The translations under genes and the position numbers were made by a program. Shown one piece after another: positions 23,599-39,885 of a stretch of 59,785 nt of DNA. Under the pieces are notes generated by a model. That model was not told where the DNA came from. It did not search any database and saw only the letters and a program-made list of their open reading frames with translations. The stretch is taken from assembly GCA_023139715.1 (NCBI GenBank), contig JAGLNB010000002.1:1-59785 (forward strand), written 5' to 3'. The DNA is from Planctomycetota bacterium (GTDB lineage: Bacteria > Planctomycetota > Phycisphaerae > Sedimentisphaerales > Anaerobacaceae). Position 1 is the first letter of the stretch. Every line of letters begins with the position of its first letter.

Positions 23599-23790
23599 TT
23601 ACTTCTCAGTAAACATTTCTTCGATCTCTTCTTTGGTGTGTCCTTCTGCAAGTAACAATTCTGTGGCAGTCTTTTCACCTTCTCTGAATATCCTTAACAG
23701 CAAATCATGCCACGGCAATCCAATGAAGTTTTTAAGTCTGTTCAATTCTGTATATTCAGCATCGGTGAACTTTTCATTTAGATTTTTCAC
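23599..23790 (-). CDS. hypothetical protein (possible RHH-like)
   Basis: GTG start 7 nt after a strong AAGGAGG. Confidence 0.6.
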   Translation of the reverse strand: MKNLNEKFTDAEYTELNRLKNFIGLPWHDLLLRIFREGEKTATELLLAEGHTKEEIEEMFTEK

Positions 23791-23850
23791 TTAGTAGCCT
23801 CCTTAATGAGTTAGTTACTTAGTATGTACATATAGTATAAATAGTTACTG

Positions 23851-23883
23851 GTAAAAATATGTTGGTGGTCTGCTGGCACCACC
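23851..23883 (-). terminator. hairpin plus T-run downstream of the tRNA-like gene
   Basis: GGTGGT..ACCACC stem (23864-23883) followed by ATATTTTTAC on the minus strand. Confidence 0.5.
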
Positions 23884-23949
23884 GGGCCATTGCTTCTCCT
23901 AGTGTTCGCCGACGCCACTATACAACTTTCAACGGTGTATAGTCCGCAA

Positions 23950-24027
23950 TGCAGCCTGCCAGATTTGAACTGGCGATCTCCAAACCCCTTGAGTTTGGCG
24001 AGATAGTCCATGCTTCTCCAAGGCTAC
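23950..24027 (-). tRNA. tRNA-like gene with an expanded anticodon arm (no encoded CCA)
   Basis: GTAGCCT/AGGCTGC acceptor, GAGA/TCTC D stem with A14 and GG, GCCAG-TTCAAAT-CTGGC T arm, 5-nt variable loop. The anticodon arm CCAAA-CUCAAGGGG-UUUGG is 2 nt too long. Confidence 0.7.
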
Positions 24028-24039
24028 ATGATGTATTTA

Positions 24040-24320
24040 ATAGGAGGTTGCGACCCATGCTAGGAGAACACGGATCGCTGTTTTTTCTGTGGGAGGTGAT
24101 CTGCCGAAGAACGCTTTTGAAGCGCTAGGAATCAGGGAAAATGTAAACCTGCTTCGGCACGTTGGTTGTCTGTGATTGGAGGTTGCTGCGGGATGTCTTG
24201 AAACATCGGCGGGATAGTGATATTATTTGGGGGAGTGGATAGGATTCTCCCGCCGTCCCGCAGCTCGTTGATATTCGTATGATGGTTGTGGCAGGGTACG
24301 TGGCTGACGAACCCCGCCGG
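24040..24320. ncRNA. GC-rich structured non-coding island (candidate ncRNA or cis element)
   Basis: No credible ORF. Nested stems 24186-24193/24256-24263 and 24207-24214/24248-24255; stem 24103-24109/24152-24158; three GGAGGT motifs. Confidence 0.4.
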
Positions 24321-24325
24321 TTTGT

Positions 24326-24487
24326 TTAGTGTAATGCCTTTGGTTCTAGCTGATCCTTGAGCTCCATGAGTGCATTGATTACAACATCTGTCTTGTTGTA
24401 AAATCTTCTTGTTTCTGCCTGACGCTCTATGAACTCGTCCAATTCTAAAGGTATTCTATTGTGTATTACTGTTGTTTCTTTTGTCAT
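24326..24487 (-). CDS. ribbon-helix-helix transcription factor
   Basis: MTKETTVIHNRIPLELDEFIERQAETRRFYNKTDVVINALMEL fits the RHH layout; the track ORF extends to a TTG at 24565 (ATG also at 24553). Confidence 0.6.
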   Translation of the reverse strand: MTKETTVIHNRIPLELDEFIERQAETRRFYNKTDVVINALMELKDQLEPKALH

Positions 24488-24746
24488 GTGATGTCCTGTT
24501 ATTGTAAGAAAGTATAATGGCTCCCCGCCGCTAGTCGCTCTGTTGGTATCCATACAACCGTTCAAATCTCACCTATATACCAAACCTCCACCGGTCTTTT
24601 TACAGGAAGGTCTCATTGATGATTATATGGTTGATAACCAACAGCCCGTCAAAATTCTAAAGGTAGGTTTTCCAAGACCATCAATTTCCCTTTTGGCGTG
24701 GTTGCATTTGGGGTTATACTTCCATATATTACATTGTTTTATTGGC

Positions 24747-38823: not shown

Positions 38824-39885
38824 TTAATTCCTCTCAACTGTTACGCTTCCTGTTCCGCCCCCTGTTCCAGCGGTTTCAGGAGTATATTTTATTCCTGTTG
38901 TTCCAAAATTGACTGGCGTTATGTCGTTACTTGCAGGTTCTGAATTGTAAGTTCCAAACCCTATATGTACTTCTTGACCATCGAATGCTTCATTTGCTGC
39001 TTGGTCTGCTGTACTCCACGCTTCGGTCCAATCTGTACCATTTCTATCATTGTCACCAGTTGTTTTAACATAACAGTCATCTTCCCAGTATTTCTCTTCG
39101 ATTGTGGCTGCTGCTAGATTATCACATGGAGCAGAATTTGCTGTCATAGAATAAAGTTTGAAACTGTGATGCATGACGCCACTATCATATTGTTGGGTAT
39201 CACCAACATCTAACAGAACAGTAGTATAAGATGACCCCCAGGCAGTTTTGAATGTGAATTCCGCTGCATCACACGGAGATGGACAATTGTGATCTGTCAT
39301 AGTTATTTCACCCCAACCATCTTTTTCAAGTAGGTTCTTGCATAAACTTCCAACCAACCTTGTTTGTGAATATGTACTATATGTTATAGATAAATATGGA
39401 TCCCACGCAGATTCTTTTGAACGTAGTTCATTTCCATCAAATGAACCATCATATGATTCATCGGTATATTTCATTAAAATACCAACATATGAATGTCCGT
39501 CTCTTAAAGCATCTCTTAGTATCGAAATAATTGATCTATTATTCCATCCAGTACTCCAGTTGTCTTCTAAATTATAATCAGTACTTGTTGGTTGATTACT
39601 CCAAGTGACTCCTGATTCTGTCCAAGTGTCATTATCGATTCTTTGAAAATCTATAGTTCTTGGATCAACTGATCCAGAATCATATACATTCAACGTACAA
39701 GAACTGATAAAATCTATAGGTACGTCAATTATTGCTGAAATATCAAACTCTATTAAGCTACGTCTAATTCCATTTGTTGCGTTTGTCTGAGCCACTGACA
39801 GATATTCAGTAGAACCATAGTTTGTAGTTGGACTGGCTTCTCGTATCTCTGCATCTTTATCTGGATAGATTGTGTTTGAAGCCAT
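38824..39885 (-). CDS. tail fibre / receptor-binding protein with DNRLRE-like N-terminal domain
   Basis: YPDKDAEIREASPTTNYGSTEYLSV..RRSLIEFDIS pattern. Confidence 0.6.
   Translation of the reverse strand: MASNTIYPDKDAEIREASPTTNYGSTEYLSVAQTNATNGIRRSLIEFDISAIIDVPIDFISSCTLNVYDSGSVDPRTIDFQRIDNDTWTESGVTWSNQPTSTDYNLEDNWSTGWNNRSIISILRDALRDGHSYVGILMKYTDESYDGSFDGNELRSKESAWDPYLSITYSTYSQTRLVGSLCKNLLEKDGWGEITMTDHNCPSPCDAAEFTFKTAWGSSYTTVLLDVGDTQQYDSGVMHHSFKLYSMTANSAPCDNLAAATIEEKYWEDDCYVKTTGDNDRNGTDWTEAWSTADQAANEAFDGQEVHIGFGTYNSEPASNDITPVNFGTTGIKYTPETAGTGGGTGSVTVERN

What the first reader, a model, noticed from the sequence alone, without database searches (positions are those of the whole stretch)
24028..24325. 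GC-rich structured non-coding island upstream of the tRNA-like gene, studded with SD/anti-SD-like motifs
About 300 nt has no credible ORF and stands out as visibly G+C-rich in an AT-rich genome. It contains a three-way-junction-like fold. The stem CTGCGGGA 24186-24193 pairs with TCCCGCAG 24256-24263. The stem CGGCGGGA 24207-24214 pairs with TCCCGCCG 24248-24255. There is a small ATGT/ACAT hairpin, and another stem GCCGAAG 24103-24109 / CTTCGGC 24152-24158. The plus strand carries GGAGGTTGC twice (24043-24051 and 24178-24186) and a perfect GGAGGTGATC (24092-24101). A minus-strand transcript would therefore display three CCUCC anti-SD mimics, including GAUCACCUCC, which is identical to the conserved 3' tail of 16S rRNA. 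Candidate roles are a regulatory or sponge RNA, a leader processed together with the tRNA-like gene, a replication or packaging site, or an attachment site.
Basis: partly seen in the sequence, partly recalled or inferred. Interest (0 to 1): 0.7.

Follow-up and report, generated by a model that had tools for sequence, protein, structure and literature searches.

The report
Viral tRNA-like RNAs with 16S-tail mimic
The G+C-rich island is real non-coding RNA: an array of conserved tRNA-like folds, made from the same strand as the neighbouring tRNA gene of a probably archaeal virus, one of which always carries a copy of the ribosome's messenger-binding tail; what it does has not been tested.

Summary
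The RNA is on the minus strand, the strand of the genes and the tRNA: minus z = -6.2 against plus z = -0.7, and conserved G·U pairs would be A·C mismatches on plus.

The island is a mosaic of four modules:
- a hairpin after the upstream ORF (H1);
- the three-way junction (3WJ, 24185-24264);
- a second, smaller three-way junction (M2, 24103-24158);
- a hairpin (H3, 24050-24078).

M2 is the conserved core. It occurs once per related virus and has compensatory changes in all three helices. It is always followed by single-stranded AUCNCCUCC (12/12 units). The 3WJ is an optional paralogue, found in 5 viruses and absent or replaced in others.

Both junctions look like tRNA-like "t-elements": a 7-bp closing stem stacked on a 5-bp hairpin with a UUCAA loop. 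Neither is called a tRNA, and Rfam has no match.

tRNA features in relatives point to an archaeal host. My best reading is that the t-elements punctuate an early transcript through RNase P and tRNase Z, releasing small RNAs with exposed anti-Shine-Dalgarno segments. The structure and conservation are shown; the processing and function are inferred. The attP, origin, plus-strand and small-ORF readings are not supported.

The parts
24326..24487 (-). Upstream 53-aa ORF. The RNA island starts 7 nt after its stop codon, with no promoter-like gap, so the island is probably co-transcribed with it.
   Evidence: ORF list. Homologues sit in the same position in relatives. Pfam and PHROGs give no family.
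24290..24318 (-). H1 hairpin, GGCGGGGU-(13 nt)-ACCCUGCC, directly after the ORF. It is a candidate 3'-end protecting hairpin for the upstream mRNA.
   Evidence: Folded. It is 92-100% conserved in L001, L024, L025, L039, L046, L047, L048 and L049. One-sided changes keep the helix through wobble: G·U to G-C in L001, and U·G plus A-U in L046. A shorter variant in L033/L042 behaves the same way.
24185..24264 (-). 3WJ module. It has an 8-bp closing stem, a long arm (8 bp, 33-nt C-rich loop containing ACUCCC), and a short hairpin with a UUCAAG loop stacked on the 3' strand of the closing stem. It is an optional paralogue of M2.
   Evidence: z = -5.1. Homologues are L047 3896-4000, L042 1436-1525, L050 463-541 and L051 41-120. 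All fold the same way, and the short-hairpin stem differs between them: GAUGU/ACAUC, GGUGU/ACACC, GUGUA/UACAC, GGCGG/CCGCC. RNAalifold recovers the junction. The M2 covariance model hits it at 21.9 bits, E = 0.002.
24165..24184 (-). Linker AACCUCCAAUCACAGACAAC, carrying the first CCUCC motif. The 3WJ plus this linker is bounded by CAAC|G repeats and behaves as an insertion.
   Evidence: In L025, H1 joins M2 directly (L025 408-481, then 474-556). CCUCC in this tail is kept in only 2 of 5 3WJ homologues. Unpaired probability is 0.73.
24103..24158 (-). M2, the conserved core. It is a 56-nt three-way junction: closing stem GCCGAAG/CUUCGGC, hairpin CAGG-UUUACAUUUUC-CCUG, a 6-nt linker, and a T-arm-like hairpin AGCGC-UUCAAAA-GCGUU that abuts the 3' strand of the closing stem.
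   Evidence: On the 9-sequence alignment A3, 97% of cells are paired and each of the three helices has a compensatory pair. Slid controls give 39-51% paired. RNAalifold gives the same fold. CM R1 finds one strong copy per relative, 14 hits at 55-108 bits, plus L050. M2 is 92% identical to L001, where the adjacent ORF is 70% identical.
24078..24102 (-). M2 tail, A-GAUCACCUCCCACAGAAAAAAC. This single-stranded segment is identical over 10 nt to the canonical 3' tail of 16S rRNA.
   Evidence: AUCNCCUCC follows all 12 M2 or M2-like units. Unpaired probability is 0.74. The virus's own genes use Shine-Dalgarno sequences complementary to this tail: 34 of 87 starts have a >=5-nt exact complement, against 6 of 87 controls.
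24050..24078 (-). H3 hairpin (type b), GCGAUCC-GUGUUCUCCUAGCAU-GGGUCGC. The loop is conserved and contains CUCC, and the stem covaries.
   Evidence: L025 has GCGGCUC/GGGCCGC and L050 has GCGGUCC/GGGCCGC with the same loop. The A-U to G-C change is compensatory. G·U pairs lie on this strand, and the reverse complement folds 6 kcal/mol worse. Other relatives carry a different hairpin (type a, loop GUUUCAUUGA) in the same place.
24028..24049 (-). H3 tail and tRNA leader, AACCUCCUAUUAAAUACAUCAU, carrying the third CCUCC motif.
   Evidence: ACCUCCUAU is kept in L001, L003/L050, L039, L025, L042 and L047. It changes to ACCUACUAU in L023 and ACCCCCUAU in L033.
23949..24028 (-). Non-canonical tRNA-like gene (ARAGORN: Leu, anticodon AAG). 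It has a 6-bp anticodon stem (or a 9-nt loop) and no encoded CCA.
   Evidence: ARAGORN result. No Rfam tRNA hit at E <= 10. A 92%-identical homologue in L031/L033 has anticodon AUG and compensatory acceptor-stem changes.
23918..23942 (-). Conserved hairpin after the tRNA, CUAUACA-CCGUUGAAAGU-UGUAUAG.
   Evidence: It is 94-97% identical in L001, L024, L025 and L026, downstream of different tRNAs.
23853..23883 (-). End of the transcription unit. The hairpin GGUGGUGCCAGCAGACCACC is followed, after 6 nt, by the first T5 run on this strand. A conserved TATA-like ACTATTTATAC for the next gene follows.
   Evidence: Terminator scan. Conserved in L003, L021-26, L039 and L048.

Best explanation
The island is the non-coding part of an early, minus-strand polycistronic transcript of a tailed virus whose host is probably an archaeon. 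The transcript runs from the 53-aa ORF through the island and the tRNA gene to a T5 terminator.

The two three-way junctions (3WJ and M2) are tRNA-like 't-elements'. Each has a 7-8-bp acceptor-like stem stacked on a 5-bp hairpin with a T-loop-like UUCAA loop, plus one further arm.

Inferred mechanism:
- Host RNase P cuts at the 5' edge of each t-element and of the tRNA.
- tRNase Z cuts after the unpaired nucleotide that follows each closing stem.
- This leaves the upstream mRNA with the H1 hairpin as a protective 3' end.
- It also releases short RNAs that begin or end with exposed C-rich segments. After M2 this RNA is GAUCACCUCCCACAG-A6-[H3 hairpin, CUCC loop]-AACCUCCUAU.
- These segments copy the 3' tail of 16S rRNA, so they can pair with Shine-Dalgarno sequences and mask ribosome-binding sites. 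Alternatively they could occupy factors that recognise the 16S tail.

Shown: the strand, the folds, covariation, modular gain and loss, and conservation of the AUCNCCUCC tail.

Inferred: co-transcription, cleavage by RNase P and tRNase Z, and any trans-acting function.
For: Strand:
- Minus z = -6.2 against plus z = -0.7.
- Pair 48-62 of M2 is G·U in 8 of 9 sequences. Further G·U pairs in H1 and H3 would be A·C on the plus strand.
- All neighbouring genes and the tRNA are on the minus strand.

Structure:
- M2 is 97% paired, with a compensatory pair in each helix.
- The 3WJ fold recurs in 5 viruses with a covarying short hairpin.
- The M2 model detects the 3WJ in the window and in L051, at E about 0.002.

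tRNA-likeness:
- The T-like hairpin abuts the 3' strand of the closing stem, giving a 12-bp coaxial stack.
- In its loop, U1, U2, A4 and A5 are invariant and position 3 varies.
- The elements sit in arrays with real tRNAs, which differ from virus to virus.

M2 is a gene in its own right. In L048 the island is only H1 + M2 + tail + terminator, with no tRNA.

Tail:
- AUCNCCUCC is present in 12 of 12 units and is predicted to be unpaired.
- The virus's genes use matching SD sequences.

Precedents:
- t-elements are cleaved by RNase P and tRNase Z in Haloferax (PMC4326828).
- Mapped transcript ends coincide with t-elements in plant mitochondria (PMC1920247).
- Anti-RBS small RNAs sRNA154 and sRNA41 act in Methanosarcina mazei (PMC5867862).
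Against: - There are no expression or end-mapping data. Processing is inferred from shape alone.
- ARAGORN, even with relaxed or mitochondrial settings, and the Rfam tRNA model do not recognise M2 or the 3WJ as tRNA-like.
- The T-like loop lacks the GGTTCRANYCC consensus that was used to find plant t-elements.
- A generic anti-SD RNA would also mask the virus's own SD-led genes.
- No target with extended complementarity exists in the window.
- CCUCC after the 3WJ is not conserved (2 of 5), and part of the CUCC excess is compositional (5% of shuffles).
- If M2 were only a cleavage signal, the conserved sequence of its hairpin loop (UUUACAUUUUC) would be unexplained.
- The archaeal host is inferred from tRNAs of relatives, not from the window itself. 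One relative was binned as 'archaeon' and another as 'Dojkabacteria'.
Confidence: 0.45

Rival explanations
1. Decoy or sponge for a host factor. The released or embedded modules imitate host RNAs: an acceptor/T-arm tRNA mimic plus a 16S 3'-tail mimic. They would titrate a protein that recognises those features. Candidates are the 16S 3'-end maturation machinery (Nob1, Dim2/Pno1), another tail-binding factor, or a defence ribonuclease that targets tRNA acceptor ends or the anti-SD tail.
For: - M2 is far more conserved than a simple cleavage signal needs to be, including its loop sequences and the tail beyond CCUCC (AUCNCCUCCCACAGAAAA).
- The tail equals GAUCACCUCC.
- The H3 tail ACCUCCUAU equals 9 nt of the Pyrococcus horikoshii Nob1 D-site substrate GAUCACCUCCUAUCG (PMC3326319).
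- This reading avoids the problem of the virus masking its own SD sequences.
Against: - No protein partner is identified, and no such viral decoy is known to me.
- Nob1 binds short D-site RNAs only weakly, and its specificity needs the ribosomal context (helix 40) (PMC3326319).
- The 9-nt identity to a Pyrococcus spacer could be chance, because the host's spacer sequence is unknown.
Confidence: 0.2
2. Purely cis-acting processing and stability elements of a viral tRNA operon. The hairpins and tRNA-like folds would only guide maturation of the tRNA(s) and protect the upstream mRNA. The fragments would have no trans function, and the CCUCC-containing linkers would be conserved as nuclease sites or spacers.
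For: - The modules lie between an ORF and tRNA genes on one strand.
- H1 sits directly after the stop codon.
- t-elements are known as cis signals (PMC1920247, PMC4326828).
- Module content is highly variable between close relatives.
Against: - In L048, M2 and its tail persist with no tRNA to mature.
- M2 is 85-92% identical across viruses whose flanking ORFs are about 70% identical.
- A spacer role does not explain an invariant AUCNCCUCC in 12 of 12 units.
Confidence: 0.2
3. Decaying tRNA pseudogenes. The junctions would be relics of tRNA genes that lost an arm in a rapidly rearranging tRNA island and have no function now.
For: - The island is a recombination hotspot with different tRNAs, split or intron-bearing tRNA-like genes and odd tRNAs in every relative.
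- Both junctions have a tRNA-like outline.
Against: - Compensatory substitutions in all three M2 helices and in the 3WJ short hairpin show selection for the fold.
- There is one M2 per virus, at much higher identity than the neighbouring ORFs.
Confidence: 0.05
4. A DNA-level site: attP, replication origin or packaging site built from inverted repeats.
For: It is a G+C-rich non-coding island with many inverted repeats next to a tRNA gene. tRNA genes are classic integration targets.
Against: - Stems are kept through G·U intermediates and compensatory changes, while protein-binding palindromes keep their sequence.
- The fold is strongly strand-asymmetric.
- The 185,579 species genomes hold no match to the M2 pattern, the only part of the island scanned, and no close terminase relative. 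The latter scan finds close relatives only.
- No integrase is among the ~40 of the window's ORFs scanned against Pfam.
- There is no GC-skew switch at the island.
Confidence: 0.03
5. A plus-strand product: either a GGA/GGAGG-rich sponge RNA of the CsrB/Rsm type, or small ORFs served by the three GGAGG Shine-Dalgarno sequences.
For: - The plus strand shows about ten GGA motifs.
- GGAGG lies 9 nt before an ATG at 24057 (23 codons).
- There is a sigma-70-like promoter match at 24198-24226.
- The H3 hairpin followed by T6 resembles a plus-strand terminator.
Against: - Plus-strand folding is no better than shuffles (z = -0.7).
- Conserved G·U pairs become A·C on the plus strand.
- 1-nt indels in the conserved block break every candidate frame between relatives.
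- Promoter-like matches are near background, 13 found against 7.7 expected, and are irrelevant if the host is archaeal.
Confidence: 0.03

Closest known systems
t-elements: tRNA-like processing signals upstream of Haloferax volcanii 5S rRNA and in plant mitochondrial transcripts
   Same: They are non-canonical tRNA-like folds embedded in longer transcripts, next to genuine tRNAs or other RNAs. They have an acceptor-like stem and a T-arm-like hairpin. They are used, or proposed to be used, as RNase P and tRNase Z cleavage signals that define the ends of neighbouring RNAs (PMC4326828, PMC1920247).
   Different: - Cleavage is not shown here.
- M2 and the 3WJ have only two arms.
- Their T-like loop fits UUCAA but not the GGTTCRANYCC motif.
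- They are virus-encoded and form a sequence-conserved family.
- They are coupled to a conserved 16S-tail-like segment, which no described t-element has, to my knowledge.
Small stable RNAs of the bacteriophage T4 tRNA cluster (species 1 and 2, also called band C and D RNAs); from my own knowledge, not checked here
   Same: They are virus-encoded small structured RNAs of unknown function. They are co-transcribed with the phage tRNA genes and cut out of the same precursor by host tRNA-processing enzymes.
   Different: There is no sequence or Rfam relationship. The host domain is probably different. The T4 RNAs have no reported anti-SD tail.
Anti-RBS small RNAs of Methanosarcina mazei (sRNA154, sRNA41)
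   Same: They are archaeal small RNAs whose exposed anti-RBS sequences mask ribosome-binding sites, including sites inside polycistronic mRNAs (PMC5867862). Several CUCC or CCUCC motifs are likewise displayed unpaired here.
   Different: Those are chromosomal and have their own promoters. They are not tRNA-like and not linked to tRNA genes. No homology was detected. The function here is only inferred from sequence.
3' tail of 16S rRNA (helix 45 followed by GAUCACCUCC) and its pre-rRNA D-site
   Same: A stable stem is followed by single-stranded GAUCACCUCC, identical over 10 nt. ACCUCCUAU after H3 matches the P. horikoshii D-site substrate over 9 nt (PMC3326319).
   Different: The preceding fold is a three-way junction, not helix 45. 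No other 16S similarity exists, and Rfam finds no SSU match. Position N of AUCNCCUCC varies (A, C or U).
mascRNA and the MALAT1 3' end (from my own knowledge)
   Same: A tRNA-like fold inside a longer transcript is cut by RNase P and RNase Z. This simultaneously creates the protected 3' end of the upstream RNA and releases a small tRNA-like RNA. It is analogous to the proposed order H1-protected mRNA, cut, M2.
   Different: That system is eukaryotic and nuclear. The upstream end is protected by a triple helix rather than a hairpin. There is no sequence relationship.

Membership tests
Canonical tRNA (Rfam RF00005 / ARAGORN) | Cloverleaf with D, anticodon and T arms, detectable by tRNA models | tested here: not met
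   Rfam gives no tRNA hit in 23700-24700 at E <= 10. ARAGORN calls only 23949-24028. With relaxed or mitochondrial settings it still does not call M2 or the 3WJ on the minus strand.
t-element (tRNA-like processing signal) | Non-canonical tRNA-like fold: an acceptor-like stem coaxial with a T-arm-like hairpin, embedded in a longer transcript | tested here: met
   M2 has a 7-bp closing stem, and a 5-bp hairpin with loop UUCAAAA directly abuts its 3' strand. The 3WJ has 7-8 bp plus 4-5 bp with loop UUCAAG. Both are supported by covariation. They sit between an ORF and a tRNA gene on one strand.
t-element (tRNA-like processing signal) | Conserved pseudouridine-arm motif GGTTCRANYCC, used to find the plant mitochondrial elements (PMC1920247) | tested here: not met
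   M2 reads GCGCTTCAAAAGCGT and the 3WJ reads GATGTTTCAAGACATC. Only the TTCAA core matches.
t-element (tRNA-like processing signal) | Cleavage by RNase P at the 5' edge and by tRNase Z after the discriminator | not testable with these tools
   This needs end mapping or in vitro cleavage.
Any Rfam 15 family (riboswitch, ribozyme, tmRNA, 6S, RNase P, Y-RNA-like, group I intron and others) | Score at or above the family gathering threshold | tested here: not met
   There are 0 hits in the whole window at gathering thresholds. In 23700-24700 at E <= 10 there are only two weak matches, both outside the island and below threshold. In relatives, only tRNAs and one CRISPR repeat are found. ARAGORN finds no tmRNA.
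CsrB/RsmY-type GGA sponge RNA (plus-strand reading) | A stable transcript on the GGA-bearing strand, with GGA in hairpin loops | tested here: not met
   The plus strand folds no better than shuffles. Conserved G·U pairs fall on the minus strand.
Phage attachment site (attP) | Identity with a host chromosomal site, and an integrase in the element | tested here: inconclusive
   The 185,579 species genomes hold no match to the M2 pattern and no close terminase relative. No integrase is among the ~40 window ORFs scanned. Only M2 was scanned, not the whole island, and the host genome may not be in the collection.
Anti-SD / anti-RBS regulatory sRNA | Exposed sequence complementary to Shine-Dalgarno sites that the organism actually uses | tested here: met
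   Five CUCC motifs have unpaired probabilities of 0.55-1.0. Of 87 window gene starts, 34 carry a >=5-nt exact complement of GAUCACCUCCC at -22 to -3, against 6 of 87 controls.
Anti-SD / anti-RBS regulatory sRNA | Demonstrated pairing with, and repression of, target mRNAs | not testable with these tools
   No target in the window has extended complementarity beyond the generic SD. Host mRNAs are unknown.

The most novel reading that the evidence does not exclude
M2 and its relatives are viral mimics of the immature 3' end of the small-subunit rRNA: a stable stem followed by GAUCACCUCC and then spacer-like sequence (ACCUCCUAU after H3). They would be delivered in several copies from a tRNA-like scaffold. 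They would be recognised by the host's 16S 3'-end machinery (Nob1 endonuclease, the KH protein Dim2/Pno1) or by a defence nuclease that removes the anti-SD tail. The virus would use them either to obtain RNAs with a 3'-terminal anti-SD sequence or to divert that machinery from host ribosomes. That would be an RNA decoy aimed at ribosome maturation or integrity, which has not been described for any virus as far as I know.
Probability: 0.1. Interest if true: 0.85.

Novelty: new variant of a known kind. Interest (0 to 1): 0.6.

Why it matters
Non-coding RNAs of archaeal viruses are almost unexplored, and Rfam has no family for this one. This is a compact RNA family supported by covariation. It combines two kinds of mimicry, a tRNA-like shape and a copy of the ribosome's mRNA-binding tail. 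It sits in a fast-evolving cassette region that also carries unusual tRNAs.

If the processing model holds, it shows 'tRNA punctuation' being used by a virus to produce small regulators from an early mRNA. If the tail acts on Shine-Dalgarno sites or on 16S-tail-binding factors, it would be a new route by which a virus controls translation.

The question is directly testable, because the elements are short, the predicted cleavage sites are exact, and a covariance model now exists for finding more members.

Tried and rejected
- Rfam at gathering and E-value thresholds on the window and on relatives found nothing but tRNAs and one CRISPR repeat.
- GenBank phages by blastn gave no match.
- Exact-pattern scans for the 3WJ stem and for the tail gave nothing or chance hits. 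L004 and L005 lie in G+C-rich coding DNA. L052-L055 are likewise chance matches.
- More distant relatives found through the Gp3-like protein (50-58% identity, L007-L020) have no tRNA and no island match.
- Relaxed and mitochondrial ARAGORN did not call the junctions.
- Sigma-70 promoter readings of ACCTCCTATAAAA (as a -10 box) with TTGACG in the H3a loop (as a -35 box) were rejected. The spacer is 13-20 nt and inconsistent between relatives (read).
- Small-ORF readings on the plus strand were rejected because of frame-breaking indels.
- An H/ACA or C/D-box sRNA reading was rejected. The architecture is wrong and there is no C box (read).
- A strict bulge-helix-bulge search on the L042 tRNA intron found no canonical motif. 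Only a relaxed one is plausible.
- Host identification failed:
  - The terminase and primase are <=29% identical to any deposited phage.
  - There is no provirus in the species genomes.
  - MAG labels conflict.
  - The literature search for the CRISPR repeat found nothing.
- An RNAduplex scan of the window for specific targets of the tails and loops gave only weak, G·U-rich hits inside genes.
Full report
**1. The observation**

The island is G+C-richer than its surroundings, 0.49-0.50 against 0.33-0.46.

As RNA, the minus strand of 24029-24340 folds at -91.3 kcal/mol with z = -6.2. None of 100 dinucleotide shuffles folds as well. The plus strand gives z = -0.7.

GGAGGT occurs seven times on the plus strand of the window, and three of these lie within 140 nt of each other here.

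Only 26-59-aa ORFs overlap the island, and relatives differ by single-base indels inside the best-conserved block.

**2. Context**

The window is a tailed-virus genome:
- portal, terminase, Mu-F-like protein, SU10-type capsid and tail tube;
- Prim-Pol/D5 primase-helicase;
- HerA-like ATPase and methylases.

It has no close relative among deposited phages.

Around the island all genes are on the minus strand. On that strand the order is:
- the 53-aa ORF (24487->24326);
- the island;
- a tRNA-like gene (24028->23949);
- a conserved hairpin;
- a hairpin followed by the first T5 run (23883->23853);
- a TATA-like motif and the next ORF.

**3. Relatives**

I collected 20-odd related loci through three neighbouring proteins, the Gp3-like protein, the downstream 63-aa ORF and the upstream 53-aa ORF, and two more through a DNA pattern. 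Comparison splits the island into modules.

- **H1 (24290-24318).** This hairpin sits directly after the stop codon and is nearly invariant. Its few changes go through wobble pairs.
- **M2 (24103-24158).** This is a 56-nt three-way junction. It is 85-92% identical in viruses whose flanking ORF is about 70% identical.
  - On a nine-sequence alignment, 97% of cells pair, against 39-51% when partners are slid. Each of the three helices has a compensatory double change.
  - RNAalifold finds the same fold unaided.
  - A covariance model built from it finds one strong copy per virus.
  - In L048 the whole island is just H1 + M2 + tail + terminator, with no tRNA. M2 is therefore the core gene, not a tRNA leader.
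- **3WJ (24185-24264).**
  - It is missing in L024, L025, L039 and L048, where H1 joins M2 directly. In L001 a 38-aa ORF takes its place.
  - It is nevertheless a family of its own. L047, L042, L050 and L051 carry it. All fold identically, and the short hairpin reads GAUGU/ACAUC, GGUGU/ACACC, GUGUA/UACAC or GGCGG/CCGCC. The loop always starts UUCAA, and the big loop always contains ACUCCC.
  - The M2 model hits the 3WJ of the window (21.9 bits, E = 0.002) and of L051. The two junctions are therefore distant paralogues.
- **H3 (24050-24078).** This hairpin has a conserved loop (GUGUUCUCCUAGCAU) and a covarying stem, seen in the window, L025 and L050. Other viruses carry a second hairpin type at the same place.

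**4. Strand**

Pair 48-62 of M2 is G·U in eight of nine sequences. Further G·U pairs occur in H1, H3 and the closing stem of M2. On the plus strand these would be A·C mismatches. Together with the fold asymmetry and the gene orientation, this places the RNA on the minus strand.

**5. The C-rich motifs**

Five CUCC motifs lie in the 297-nt island, against 1.3 per kb elsewhere on that strand. All are predicted to be largely unpaired (0.55-1.0). Five per cent of composition-matched shuffles reach the same count, so the raw excess is partly compositional.

Conservation is more telling:
- After M2, AUCNCCUCC is present in all 12 units. In L031 and L033 an extra hairpin is inserted before it.
- After H3, ACCUCCUAU is kept in most viruses but not all.
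- After the 3WJ, CCUCC is kept in only 2 of 5.

The window's version after M2, GAUCACCUCC, is the canonical 16S 3' tail. The virus's own genes use Shine-Dalgarno sequences complementary to it, often extending into GGTGAT. Of 87 starts, 34 have a >=5-nt exact complement, against 6 of 87 controls.

**6. Host**

Relatives carry tRNAs with archaeal hallmarks.
- L025 has a 72-nt class I tRNA-Tyr with C1-G72 and A73. Bacterial tRNA-Tyr is class II with G1-C72 (established knowledge).
- L042 has a tRNA-Gln with a 25-nt intron at position 37/38. The Rfam tRNA model scores it 52.5 bits over 97 nt.

Bacteria have no enzyme for short tRNA introns (established knowledge).

Weaker hints are:
- an 'archaeon' MAG label, contradicted by a 'Dojkabacteria' label;
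- ERCC4 and disaggregatase/CBM96-like domains;
- a TATA-like box plus oligo-T terminator logic;
- a solitary CRISPR repeat ending ATTGAAAC in L042.

I rate an archaeal host at about 0.8.

**7. Mechanism**

Both junctions have the part of a tRNA that RNase P and tRNase Z measure. A 7-8-bp stem is stacked on a 5-bp hairpin, and the hairpin's loop keeps the T-loop positions U1, U2, A4 and A5. They lack one arm and are not recognised as tRNAs.

Such 't-elements' are cleaved by RNase P and tRNase Z in Haloferax. In plant mitochondria, mapped transcript ends coincide with t-elements (PMC4326828, PMC1920247).

I therefore propose a punctuated transcript:

mRNA-H1 | 3WJ | linker | M2 | tail-H3-tail | tRNA | trailer

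This releases short RNAs with exposed 16S-tail-like segments. These could mask ribosome-binding sites, as sRNA154 and sRNA41 do in Methanosarcina (PMC5867862). All of this section is inference.

The weak points are:
- there are no expression data;
- such an RNA would also mask the virus's own SD-led genes;
- no specific target appears in the window;
- the M2 loop sequence is conserved more than a cleavage signal requires.

**8. Rivals**

- A decoy for a factor that reads the 16S tail or tRNA acceptor ends (0.2). The H3 tail ACCUCCUAU matches the P. horikoshii Nob1 substrate over 9 nt (PMC3326319).
- Cis-only processing and stability elements (0.2). L048 and the invariant tail argue against this.
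- Decaying tRNA pseudogenes (0.05). Covariation argues against this.
- attP, origin or packaging site (0.03). RNA-type covariation argues against it, and no M2 pattern, close terminase relative or integrase turned up.
- A plus-strand sponge or small ORFs (0.03).

**9. Verdict**

The finding is real and more interesting than a single hairpin cluster. It is a new, covariation-supported family of virus-encoded tRNA-like RNAs coupled to a conserved anti-Shine-Dalgarno or 16S-tail mimic, set in a hypervariable tRNA cassette.

It is a new variant of known kinds (t-elements, stable RNAs of viral tRNA clusters, anti-RBS sRNAs). Its function is unproven.

Noticed in passing
window 23949-24028 (-): The tRNA next to the island is non-canonical. 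It has a 6-bp anticodon stem (or a 9-nt loop), A34 (anticodon AAG), no encoded CCA, and no Rfam tRNA hit at E <= 10. A 92%-identical homologue in L031/L033 has anticodon AUG and compensatory acceptor-stem changes, so the gene is maintained while its anticodon changes.
   Followed up: partly
window 23918-23942 (-): The hairpin CUAUACA-CCGUUGAAAGU-UGUAUAG directly after the tRNA is 94-97% identical in L001, L024, L025 and L026, where it follows different tRNAs. Its function is unknown.
   Followed up: partly
window 23800-23883 (-): A conserved unit marks the end of the island. It consists of the hairpin GGUGGUG..ACCACC, AACAUA, a T5 run, then ACCAGTAACTATTTATAC and an SD-led ORF. It reads better as an archaeal oligo-T terminator plus BRE/TATA promoter than as a bacterial terminator and sigma-70 promoter.
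   Followed up: partly
L025 837-908; L042 1901-1997: Relatives carry tRNAs with archaeal hallmarks. One is a class I tRNA-Tyr(GUA) with C1-G72 and A73. The other is a tRNA-Gln(UUG) with a 25-nt intron at 37/38. These suggest that the whole virus group infects archaea.
   Followed up: partly
L042 1137-1173 (-), also L043 3403-3424 and L045 952-973: A single CRISPR-repeat-like unit (Rfam CRISPR-DR7, 40 bits against a threshold of 37; ...ATCCACTAAAACAAGGATTGAAAC) lies just upstream of the ORF that precedes the island. It could be a solitary repeat, a mini-array or an RNA anti-CRISPR, and it is a host clue. It is not present in the window.
   Followed up: partly
L001 7857-8004; L025 1197-1309; L023 177-426; start of one in L051: A recurrent split tRNA-Leu-like gene (GATGCGTGGCGGAA..GGTAGACGC ... 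TGGGGTGCAAATCCCCACCGCATCA) is interrupted by a 60-190-nt insert of variable sequence. ARAGORN does not call it, even when allowed introns. It may be a non-canonical intron.
   Followed up: no
L025 1011-1029; L042 1732-1750; L047 3848-3866 (and L024, L043-45): A conserved module contains a perfect SD and a start-stop mini-ORF, GGAGGTATTATGTTTT(GA/AG) (Met-Phe-stop), followed by ACTGAAGAAAC-A-rich sequence. Variants in L033 and L042 read ATGATTTGA. It is absent from the window. Its GGAGG could pair with the CCUCC tails.
   Followed up: no
L025 640-720: Another tRNA-like element that ARAGORN does not call: acceptor GUCGGAG/CUCCGAC, a perfect T arm GUGG-UUCGAAU-CCAC, and a 3' end reading A-ACCA. 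Its 5' strand pairs with the preceding ACCUCC tail.
   Followed up: no
window 24500-24620 (-): The non-coding stretch upstream of the 53-aa ORF contains GGAGGT (24584-24589), an imperfect palindrome GGUAUAUAGG...GGAUACC, and a TATA-like CATTATAC about 30 nt before the ATG. This suggests a leaderless or short-leader start for the transcript that carries the island.
   Followed up: no
window 24198-24226 (+): A sigma-70-like match (TTGAAA, 17 nt, TGaTATTAT) lies inside the large loop of the 3WJ on the opposite strand. It is probably chance, given 13 matches found against 7.7 expected in the region, and it is irrelevant if the host is archaeal.
   Followed up: partly
window 38824-39885 (-): A tail-region protein has a CBM96 domain (E = 1.7e-19) and a weak match to the disaggregatase-related repeat, a domain I recall from Methanosarcina (not checked here). 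This is a possible host-range clue.
   Followed up: no
L050 136-218 (-): The virus of L003/L050 carries a second, divergent M2-like unit (32 bits) with its own AUCACCUCCCACAGAAAAA tail and H3a hairpin. The unit of t-element + tail + hairpin can therefore duplicate.
   Followed up: partly
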